From Octopus vulgaris (taxonomy: Eukaryota), in contig OX597836.1 of assembly GCA_951406725.2 (NCBI GenBank), positions 50,282,001-50,346,000 of the forward strand: a stretch of DNA of 64,000 nucleotides, read 5' to 3'. The stretch's first letter is position 1, and every line of letters begins with the position of its first letter. A model generated the notes under the pieces. It was not told the origin of the DNA. It saw nothing but the letters and a program-made list of their open reading frames with translations, and did not search any database. Positions 10,863 to 11,339 of the stretch are shown piece after piece. The translations under genes were made by a program, and so were the position numbers.

Positions 10863-11184
10863 ATATCCTTTAGACGTACCATTTCTTAAATGAAATTGGT
10901 GCAAGTTTCTTAAAACATTTTGCACTCACTCATTTGCAAATGTTCTGTGTTCTCACTCTCTCTCTCTCTCTCTCTCTCTCTCTCTCTCTCTCTCTCTCTC
11001 TCTCTCTCTCTCTCTCTCTCTCTCTCTCTCTCTCTCTCTCTCTCTCTCTCTCTCTCTCTCTCTCTCTCTCTCTCTCTCTCTCTCTCTCTCTCTCTCTCTC
11101 TCTCTCTCTCTCTCTCTCTCTCTCTCTCTCTCATCTTGTGTCTTTTATTACTTGATCTTCAATGTATTTCTTAACCGAATGTAA
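10863..11184 (+). other. U12-type (minor spliceosome) intron, AT-AA as written
   Basis: 5' site ATATCCTTT at 10863. Branch site TTCTTAAC at 11168-11175. Frame requires the next exon to start at 11185. Confidence 0.85.
10956..11132 (+). repeat. (CT)n microsatellite, about 88 units, inside the U12 intron
   Basis: Direct reading. Confidence 0.98.
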
Positions 11185-11339
11185 CTATCTACCAAGAATT
11201 CCGAAACACTGACATGAAGTATAAAAATCGTGTTCGAAGTCGTGTGGCCAATTTAAAGGATCCAAAGAATCCTCAATTGCGGGAAAGTGTGTTGCAGGGC
11301 ATCATTGATCCCTGTCGAATGGCTGGAATGACCGCTGAG
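11185..11339 (+). CDS. TCEA1: TFIIS exon, domain II: (S)[51 protein letters not shown]
   Basis: Contains the hallmark [19 protein letters not shown] motif. Donor |gtaac at 11340. Confidence 0.95.

What the first reader, a model, noticed from the sequence alone, without database searches (positions are those of the whole stretch)
10863..11185. U12 intron in TFIIS must end in AA, with a frameshifting AC decoy one base downstream
Seen: a consensus U12 donor ATATCCTTT, a branch site TTCTTAAC, and the 3' end ...GAATGTAA|C|TATCTAC. Splicing at AA (11184) gives T+CT = Ser and the conserved EIEDSIYQEF. Splicing at the canonical AC (11185) shifts frame to a stop about 10 codons later, and retention stops at TAG right after the donor. 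Established: TFIIS genes carry a minor-class intron, and AT-AA ends are rare but tolerated by the minor spliceosome. Inference: this is either a natural AT-AA intron with a built-in unproductive NMD alternative that could tune TFIIS levels, or the assembly dropped one C (true AC|CT).
Basis: partly seen in the sequence, partly recalled or inferred. Interest (0 to 1): 0.7.

Follow-up and report, generated by a model that had tools for sequence, protein, structure and literature searches.

The report
Octopus TFIIS intron ends in AA
The octopus gene for the transcription factor TFIIS carries a rare minor-class intron whose DNA is correctly assembled and which is likely cut at AA instead of the usual AC; the frame-breaking AC one base further on is likely an accident rather than a regulatory switch, but two more likely AA-ended introns hint that octopuses may use this end unusually often.

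Summary
A U12-type intron (10863-11184) sits at the codon where human TCEA1/2/3 have an AT-AC intron, and only the AA end keeps the frame. The dropped-C idea is refuted: contigs of two other studies span the site without a gap. Four of four octopus protein models that cover the junction have the residue AA gives. Junction reads could not be examined, so AA versus AC use is inferred. AT-AA minor introns are a known subtype (823 in animals; passages and supplement of PMC10639083), and human PRMT1 has an annotated AA/AC pair one base apart. The AC needs no adaptive cause: this exon ancestrally starts with C. A regulated NMD switch has no support. What stays odd: in human introns ending YAAC the AC is the annotated site (4 of 4), and 2 of 4 other AT-type minor introns checked in this genome also end in AA against 4.5% across animals (p about 0.01, small, partly post hoc). 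The scan noted AT-AA introns before in a Rozella genome, not in this gene.

The parts
6277..6345 (+). TFIIS coding exon 2 (coding exon 1, 23 codons, lies just before the window at G000:C23:50281668-50281736)
9514..9640 (+). TFIIS coding exon 3, AG/GT flanks
9781..9993 (+). TFIIS coding exon 4, AG/GT flanks
10809..10862 (+). TFIIS coding exon 5, ends in phase 1 (T of the split Ser codon)
10863..11184 (+). U12-type intron, 322 nt, AT...AA (3' end inferred from frame and protein models)
10863..10871 (+). U12 5' splice site ATATCCTTT
   Evidence: same position as human TCEA1/2/3
10871..10873 (+). in-frame TAG reached if the intron is retained
10951..11132 (+). (TC)91 microsatellite, 57% of the intron
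11167..11175 (+). U12 branch box TTTCTTAAC; predicted to pair with the branch-binding region of the genome's U12 snRNA (L002)
11182..11184 (+). in-frame 3' splice site TAA, 9 nt after the branch box, pyrimidine at -3
   Evidence: letters confirmed in runs X4 and X6
11184..11185 (+). out-of-frame AC, 10 nt after the branch box, purine at -3; its C is the first exon base
11185..11339 (+). TFIIS coding exon 6 (Pfam TFIIS_M positions 41-92)
11215..11217 (+). TGA reached if the AC is used; 122 nt before the next junction
13362..13508 (+). TFIIS coding exon 7
14897..14968 (+). TFIIS coding exon 8 (zinc ribbon)
17093..17101 (+). last coding exon, two codons and the stop

Best explanation
This is the ancient minor-spliceosome intron of TFIIS, present in the DNA as assembled, whose working end is likely AA at 11184 after an inferred change of the last intron base from C to A. 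Shown: the donor and branch box, their orthologous position, the DNA letters, the frame, and U11, U12 and U6atac genes in the genome. Inferred mechanism: U11/U12 bind donor and branch box; with an A at +1 the spliceosome accepts any A-N end near the branch; it takes the first pyrimidine-A-N it meets at a usable distance, which is TAA (9 nt after the box), and not AAC one base on. Because the exon began with C before the change, an out-of-frame AC appeared automatically. Some transcripts probably slip to it and would be removed by NMD as splicing noise, not as a tuned switch.
For: Frame: among ends 11176-11201 only 11184 is both in frame and an A-A/A-C/A-G end within 7-14 nt of the box. Orthology: human TCEA1/2/3 AT-AC at the same codon and phase, TCEA1 with AC|CT; 8 of 80 metagenome TFIIS loci have an intron here, 2 AT-AC, 2 U12 GT-AG, 4 U2-type GT-AG, none AT-AA. 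DNA: no gap in X4 and X6. Protein models: 4 of 4 named Octopus models that cover the junction read EDSIY (P0001, P0121, P0122, P0124); a fifth, P0123, starts just after the intron and equals the last 117 residues of the window model, as expected if a gene caller could not cross this end. Machinery: U12 125 bits, U11 94.5 bits, U6atac 96.9 bits. Cue: all 8 other U12 acceptors located in G000 have a pyrimidine at -3, and in all 5 AT-type introns the in-frame end is the first Y-A-N at 7 nt or more from the box; all 10 human AT_AA rows have a pyrimidine at -3. Known tolerance: A-type introns splice to any 3' nucleotide, with a preference for AC (passage of PMC4176328); 3' site choice is error-prone (passage of PMC3584512).
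Against: No junction read was seen. Distance does not exclude the AC: spacers of 9 and 10 are both common in human (4 and 4 of 22 rows, hand count) and in G000 (4 and 3 of 8). The first-YAN rule fails in human: 6 of those 22 AT-AC introns end in AAC, and in 4 of 4 that end YAAC (E2F1, NOL8, ZDHHC13, XPO4) the AC is the annotated site; XPO4 has the same TAAC|T geometry and spacer as here. By human rules the AC should compete strongly. The protein models come from related species whose intron DNA I could not see; they could have AC|C. The one differing letter in X4 was not placed by the tool, so only X6 fixes every letter at the site.
Confidence: 0.8

Rival explanations
1. The choice of AA is not gene-specific: the octopus minor spliceosome has a relaxed or shifted preference for the last base of AT-type introns, so many ancestral AT-AC introns have drifted to AT-AA. 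This is compatible with the best explanation and would replace its -3 cue as the cause.
For: Of 11 positions in G000 that are A-type in human, 3 are AT-AA (TFIIS, an E2F on C3, KAP on C8), 2 AT-AC (an NHE on C18, IPO11), 5 U12 GT-AG, 1 U2-like. Leaving out TFIIS, 2 of 4 AT-type end AA against 823 of 18,226 (4.5%) in animals; P = 0.0115. Protein models agree with the AA position in 6 of 9 named E2F models (the other 3 run into the intron) and 5 of 7 named Octopus KAP models inspected.
Against: n = 4. The idea came from E2F; the three read afterwards gave 1 of 3 (P = 0.13). KAP has an in-frame AC 6 nt further on that 2 of those 7 models use (P0129, P0157); if that is the true end the count is 1 of 4. 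The animal baseline comes from annotations, which under-call odd ends. Two AT-AC introns persist. No RNA was seen.
Confidence: 0.3
2. The AA/AC pair is a regulated switch: the cell shifts splicing to the AC to send TFIIS mRNA to NMD and so tunes TFIIS.
For: The AC lies at an optimal distance and is the generally preferred end; its stop is 122 nt before the next junction with three junctions downstream; minor-intron AS-NMD has precedents (dUrp, U11-48K; passage of PMC3584512).
Against: No conservation: none of 8 orthologous introns seen elsewhere has AA, and human TCEA1/2/3 end in AC. The decoy follows automatically from an exon that starts with C. The KAP and E2F AA ends have the same kind of out-of-frame neighbour (AG, AA). 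The review seen says alternative U12 3' sites may be errors.
Confidence: 0.08
3. The last A is edited A-to-I in the pre-mRNA, so the end is read as AG; cephalopods edit heavily (recalled).
For: Editing of GT-AA and U12-like AT-AG ends is reported in human (passage and Table 2 of PMC4176328).
Against: No strong duplex partner: best -26.2 kcal/mol for this acceptor against -32.8 to -40.5 for 5 of 5 control acceptors of the gene; 11184 is predicted unpaired (0.94). AT-AG is described as disfavoured. AT-AA needs no editing.
Confidence: 0.04
4. The assembly lost one C and the intron is an ordinary AT-AC.
For: An extra C would give the exact human TCEA1 geometry (spacer 10, AC|CT).
Against: Contigs of X4 and X6 (two studies not marked as possible sources) have 0 gaps over 11135-11545. 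Contigs drop rare variants, so a rare AC|C allele is not excluded.
Confidence: 0.02

Closest known systems
U12-type AT-AC intron of human TCEA1, TCEA2, TCEA3 (supplement rows of PMC8280824)
   Same: Same codon, phase 1, ATATCCTT donor, U12 branch box 8-10 nt before the end; TCEA1's next exon also starts CT.
   Different: Human ends are AC; here the in-frame end is AA and the AC is one base too far.
Non-canonical AT-AA minor introns (passages and Table S1 rows of PMC10639083; Tables 2-3 of PMC1557818, e.g. MSH3 AT-AA in human and AT-AC in mouse)
   Same: AT donor, U12 branch box, Y-A-A end, lineage-limited switch from AT-AC.
   Different: In 9 of 10 human AT_AA rows the next base is not C, so no canonical AC competes; here it does.
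Human PRMT1 U12 intron with AT_AA and AT_AC acceptors one base apart
   Same: Tandem AA/AC ends after one branch box, both annotated.
   Different: Its AA form rests on one predicted (XM) model; here the AA form is the only one that can make full-length protein.
Minor-spliceosome AS-NMD switches (USSE of U11-48K and U11/U12-65K; Drosophila dUrp; passages of PMC3584512)
   Same: An alternative product that would be an NMD target.
   Different: Those have dedicated conserved elements or twintrons; here there is only a one-base neighbour and no sign of conservation or regulation.

Membership tests
U12-type (minor) intron | 5' splice site RTATCCTT at intron position +1 | tested here: met
   ATATCCTTT at 10863, directly after the exon
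U12-type (minor) intron | Branch box of the TTCCTTAAC type close to the 3' end, complementary to U12 snRNA | tested here: met
   TTTCTTAAC 11167-11175, 9 nt before the end; 7-bp core duplex with L002, -4.9 kcal/mol
U12-type (minor) intron | No usable U2 acceptor (AG after a pyrimidine tract) at the boundary | tested here: met
   AG only at 10872, 10904 and 11195; the last gives a stop with this donor
U12-type (minor) intron | Minor snRNA genes in the genome | tested here: met
   U12, U11, U6atac over Rfam cut-off; U4atac not searched
U12-type (minor) intron | Removal depends on the minor spliceosome | not testable with these tools
   needs U12 or U6atac knock-down
AT-AA subtype | Genomic letters at the end are AA with no missing base | tested here: met
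   X6 identical at the site, X4 without gap
AT-AA subtype | Spliced RNA joins the donor to the base after AA | tested here: inconclusive
   no junction reads obtained; indirect support from frame and 4 of 4 protein models of related species
Regulated AS-NMD switch | Alternative product has a stop more than 50-55 nt before a downstream junction | tested here: met
   TGA 11215-11217, 122 nt before the junction; the 50-55 nt rule is recalled
Regulated AS-NMD switch | The unproductive site is conserved across species | tested here: inconclusive
   absent in human TCEA1/2/3 and in 8 of 8 orthologous introns from metagenome loci; no cephalopod intron DNA was available
Regulated AS-NMD switch | The unproductive junction is used and its share changes with condition | not tested
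   no RNA reads examined
TFIIS / TCEA | Med26-like N-terminal, TFIIS_M and zinc-ribbon domains in one protein | tested here: met
   P0124, which differs from the window model at 2 of 281 residues, has all three

The most novel reading that the evidence does not exclude
The octopus minor spliceosome has shifted its 3'-end rule so that it takes YAA ahead of an adjacent AC, and a large share of ancestral AT-AC introns in octopus have become AT-AA. TFIIS would be the sharpest proof, since it cannot make protein otherwise, and canonical-only gene callers would break such genes across the genome, as seen for TFIIS, E2F and KAP models.
Probability: 0.3. Interest if true: 0.7.

Novelty: new member of a known kind. 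Interest (0 to 1): 0.45.

Why it matters
How the minor spliceosome picks the last base of an intron is loosely defined. This intron is a natural test: a non-canonical AA and a canonical AC one base apart, both at usable distance, where only the non-canonical one can make a core transcription factor, and where human introns of the same shape use the AC. One junction count would show how strong the -3 pyrimidine or first-site cue is. If the excess of AA ends holds genome-wide, it would be a lineage-level change in splice-site recognition in an animal. In practice, public models named Octopus vulgaris break or shift at all three AA-ended introns. If AA is simply tolerated with some leak, it is one more of hundreds of known AT-AA introns.

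Tried and rejected
X3 and X7 gave nothing at the site. Other donors between 10840 and 10899 paired with the AC: none with GT, GC or AT start gave an open frame. Other in-frame ends (spacer 6, 12, 15) are not A-N ends of the usual kind and add or remove residues. Distance as the sole cue: rejected, 9 and 10 are both normal. Editing duplex: not found. The other three RTATCCTT sites of the window lie at no evident exon end. Metagenome scan gave no cephalopod locus that I could recognise; L058 stayed unresolved. Family searches PF04573 and PF08598 found nothing in G000; of 8 IBN_N hits I followed 2 to their intron plus 40 kb of a third without result, and of 3 Na/H-exchanger hits 2 were informative. 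A first exon model was off by one base and was redone. Dietrich 2001 and 2005 and Levine and Durbin 2001 are not held. Supplements of PMC4176328: 3 files searched without a hit, file 1 not searched. I did not search G000 for TFIIS paralogues by protein; the DNA search found one copy.

Full report
1. Observation. The window holds a TFIIS (TCEA) gene on the + strand with coding exons at 6277-6345, 9514-9640, 9781-9993, 10809-10862, 11185-11339, 13362-13508, 14897-14968 and 17093-17101; the first coding exon lies about 300 bases before the window. The model differs from an Octopus sinensis protein at 2 of 281 residues, so the animal is an octopus. All introns in the window have GT-AG ends except 10863-11184, which starts ATATCCTTT, holds a (TC)91 repeat, has the branch box TTTCTTAAC at 11167-11175 and runs on to TAA|C. 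Ending at 11184 keeps the frame to the natural stop. Ending at the AC (11185) gives TGA at 11215-11217, 122 nt before the next junction, and would cut the protein at 187 residues, inside the TFIIS_M domain and before the zinc ribbon. Retention stops at 10871-10873. The motifs as such are at chance level in 64 kb; their place is not, since the donor starts exactly at the exon end, at the codon and phase of the U12 AT-AC intron of human TCEA1, TCEA2 and TCEA3.

2. Is a C missing? No. Of 4 runs laid on 11135-11545, two covered the site, each in one contig with 0 gaps: X6 (study P4, depth 30.5) differs only at 11234 and 11446, and X4 (study P3, depth 5.3) has one differing letter that the tool did not place. 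X3 and X7 gave nothing at the site. Contigs drop rare variants, so a rare allele is not excluded. The stretch has one copy in G000 by DNA search.

3. Is AA the working end? This is inferred; no junction read was examined. Four of four named Octopus models that cover the junction read EDSIY, the residue that AA gives (P0001, P0121, P0122, P0124). I could not see the intron DNA of those species. A fifth model, P0123, begins at the first Met after the intron and equals the last 117 residues of the window model, which is what a caller limited to canonical ends would produce. In the orthologues printed one residue separates the acidic pair from the Ile, apart from rows that look like intron read-through. 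U12, U11 and U6atac genes are present over the Rfam cut-offs, and the branch box can pair with the U12 found.

4. Where the decoy comes from. The split codon is Ala in 68 of 122 orthologues with a residue there (126 examined, 4 lacked the position), Ala in argonaut, and the exon after the human TCEA1 intron starts CT. So the C at 11185 is the old first exon base. A single C-to-A change in the last intron base (inferred) turns AC|CT into AA|CT and creates the AC at once. Among 80 metagenome TFIIS loci, 8 have an intron at this place by my reading: 2 AT-AC, 2 U12 GT-AG, 4 U2-type GT-AG in two near-identical pairs, none AT-AA; 71 run on in frame and one is unresolved. The pair is thus not an old conserved device. 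Any AT-AA intron has an out-of-frame A-N site one base on, and a frameshift stop follows by default.

5. How AA could win. Distance does not decide. In the first 22 of 228 'atac' places of a human table (hand count) the spacer from branch box to end was 7 (3), 8 (3), 9 (4), 10 (4), 11 (6), 12 (1), 14 (1). In 8 other U12 introns located in G000 it was 9 (4), 10 (3), 13 (1). Here AA is at 9 and AC at 10. The cue that fits G000 is the pyrimidine at -3: all 8 other acceptors have it, TAA has it, AAC does not, and in all 5 AT-type introns the in-frame end is the first Y-A-N at 7 nt or more. All 10 human AT_AA rows also have it. Against this, 6 of the 22 human AT-AC introns end AAC, and in the 4 that end YAAC the AC is annotated, XPO4 with the same geometry as here. 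Only 1 of the 10 human AT_AA rows is followed by C: PRMT1, where AA and AC ends one base apart are both annotated. By human rules the AC should compete, so either there is real leak or the octopus machinery weighs the ends differently. Editing of the last A was considered (precedent) but no duplex partner stands out.

6. A wider lead. I looked in G000 at 11 positions that are A-type in human, TFIIS included. Family accessions and the gene labels IPO9, IPO11, NHE6-like and NHE8 were recalled or read from the translations; only E2F and KAP were confirmed by protein searches. Result: 3 AT-AA (TFIIS, E2F on C3, KAP on C8), 2 AT-AC (NHE on C18, IPO11 on C12), 5 U12 GT-AG, 1 U2-like; two searches found nothing. 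Without TFIIS, 2 of 4 AT-type introns end AA, against 823 of 18,226 A-type introns in animals, P = 0.0115. The idea arose from E2F; the three read later gave 1 of 3, P = 0.13. The E2F end agrees with 6 of 9 named models, the other 3 running into the intron. The KAP end agrees with 5 of 7 named Octopus models inspected and with the length in argonaut and cuttlefish; 2 models use an in-frame AC 6 nt further on, which would lower the count to 1 of 4 if true. The lead is suggestive, not shown.

7. Comparison with what is known. AT-AA is the commonest non-canonical minor terminus in animals and plants, with AT-AA/AT-AC switches between human and mouse. It works like, and by every sequence feature tested is, a U12 A-type intron. 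It does not meet the tested features of a regulated AS-NMD switch beyond having a premature stop. Searches listed no paper on this intron or on AT-AA ends in cephalopods; I saw listings only for most hits. O. sinensis and O. bimaculoides are among the species of PMC10639083, so the intron may be in its per-intron data, which I could not see. Papers seen: PMC1557818 passages and Tables 2-3; PMC10639083 passages and supplement rows, and passages of its preprint; PMC3584512, PMC1874599, PMC4176328, PMC7367187, PMC11347168 passages; PMC8280824 passages, supplement rows and file 4 whole. Dietrich 2001, 2005 and Levine and Durbin 2001: nothing seen.

8. Verdict. Real, not an assembly error; a new member of a known rare intron subtype, with an unusual canonical competitor. 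Regulation is unlikely (0.08). The bolder reading, a lineage-wide shift to AA, stands at about 0.3. Interest 0.45.

Noticed in passing
L119 (G000:C3, minus strand), E2F gene: 1068-nt U12 intron, ATATCCTTT donor, in-frame end TAA 10 nt after the branch box; human E2F1 has AT-AC here. Three models named O. vulgaris run into this intron.
   Followed up: partly
L118 (G000:C8, minus strand), KAP/KIFAP3 gene: U12 intron with AT donor and in-frame end TAA at spacer 9, an out-of-frame AG one base on and an in-frame AC 6 nt on; public models disagree on the end.
   Followed up: partly
G000, many contigs (L007, L008 and 41 more places): 43 of 46 scored candidates match U6atac over the cut-off, mostly full length and dispersed; likely retrocopies or an amplified family. 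Also 5 U11-like and 3 U12-like matches.
   Followed up: no
L089-L097, L102, L127-L130, L125/L142: Five introns that are AT-AC in human are U12 GT-AG in this genome (SPCS2, ARPC5, an E2F on C20, NHE8-like, IPO9), and a second C20 E2F copy has a U2-like donor: much subtype switching.
   Followed up: partly
window 6277-6345: The O. sinensis isoform P0122 lacks this 69-nt exon, an in-frame skip in the N-terminal domain.
   Followed up: no
window 10951-11132: A (TC)91 repeat makes up over half of the minor intron; a long pyrimidine tract with no AG acceptor behind it.
   Followed up: no
G000:C22:1242726-1242971 (minus): An importin-beta N-terminal match in an open frame of 1058 codons, likely an intronless importin gene or retrocopy.
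   Followed up: no
window about 33650-35500: About 1.8 kb of (GGT)n/(GGCAGTAGT) repeat, open in several frames; looks like a satellite, not a gene.
   Followed up: no
window 30943-32492 (-), 44957-45643 (-), 56417-57504 (+): Fragments that read like reverse-transcriptase frames of LINE-type elements (label by recall, not tested).
   Followed up: no
L040, L041, L046, L050: The orthologous TFIIS intron is a 55-57 nt U2-type GT-AG intron in these AT-rich loci, a U12-to-U2 conversion or independent state.
   Followed up: no
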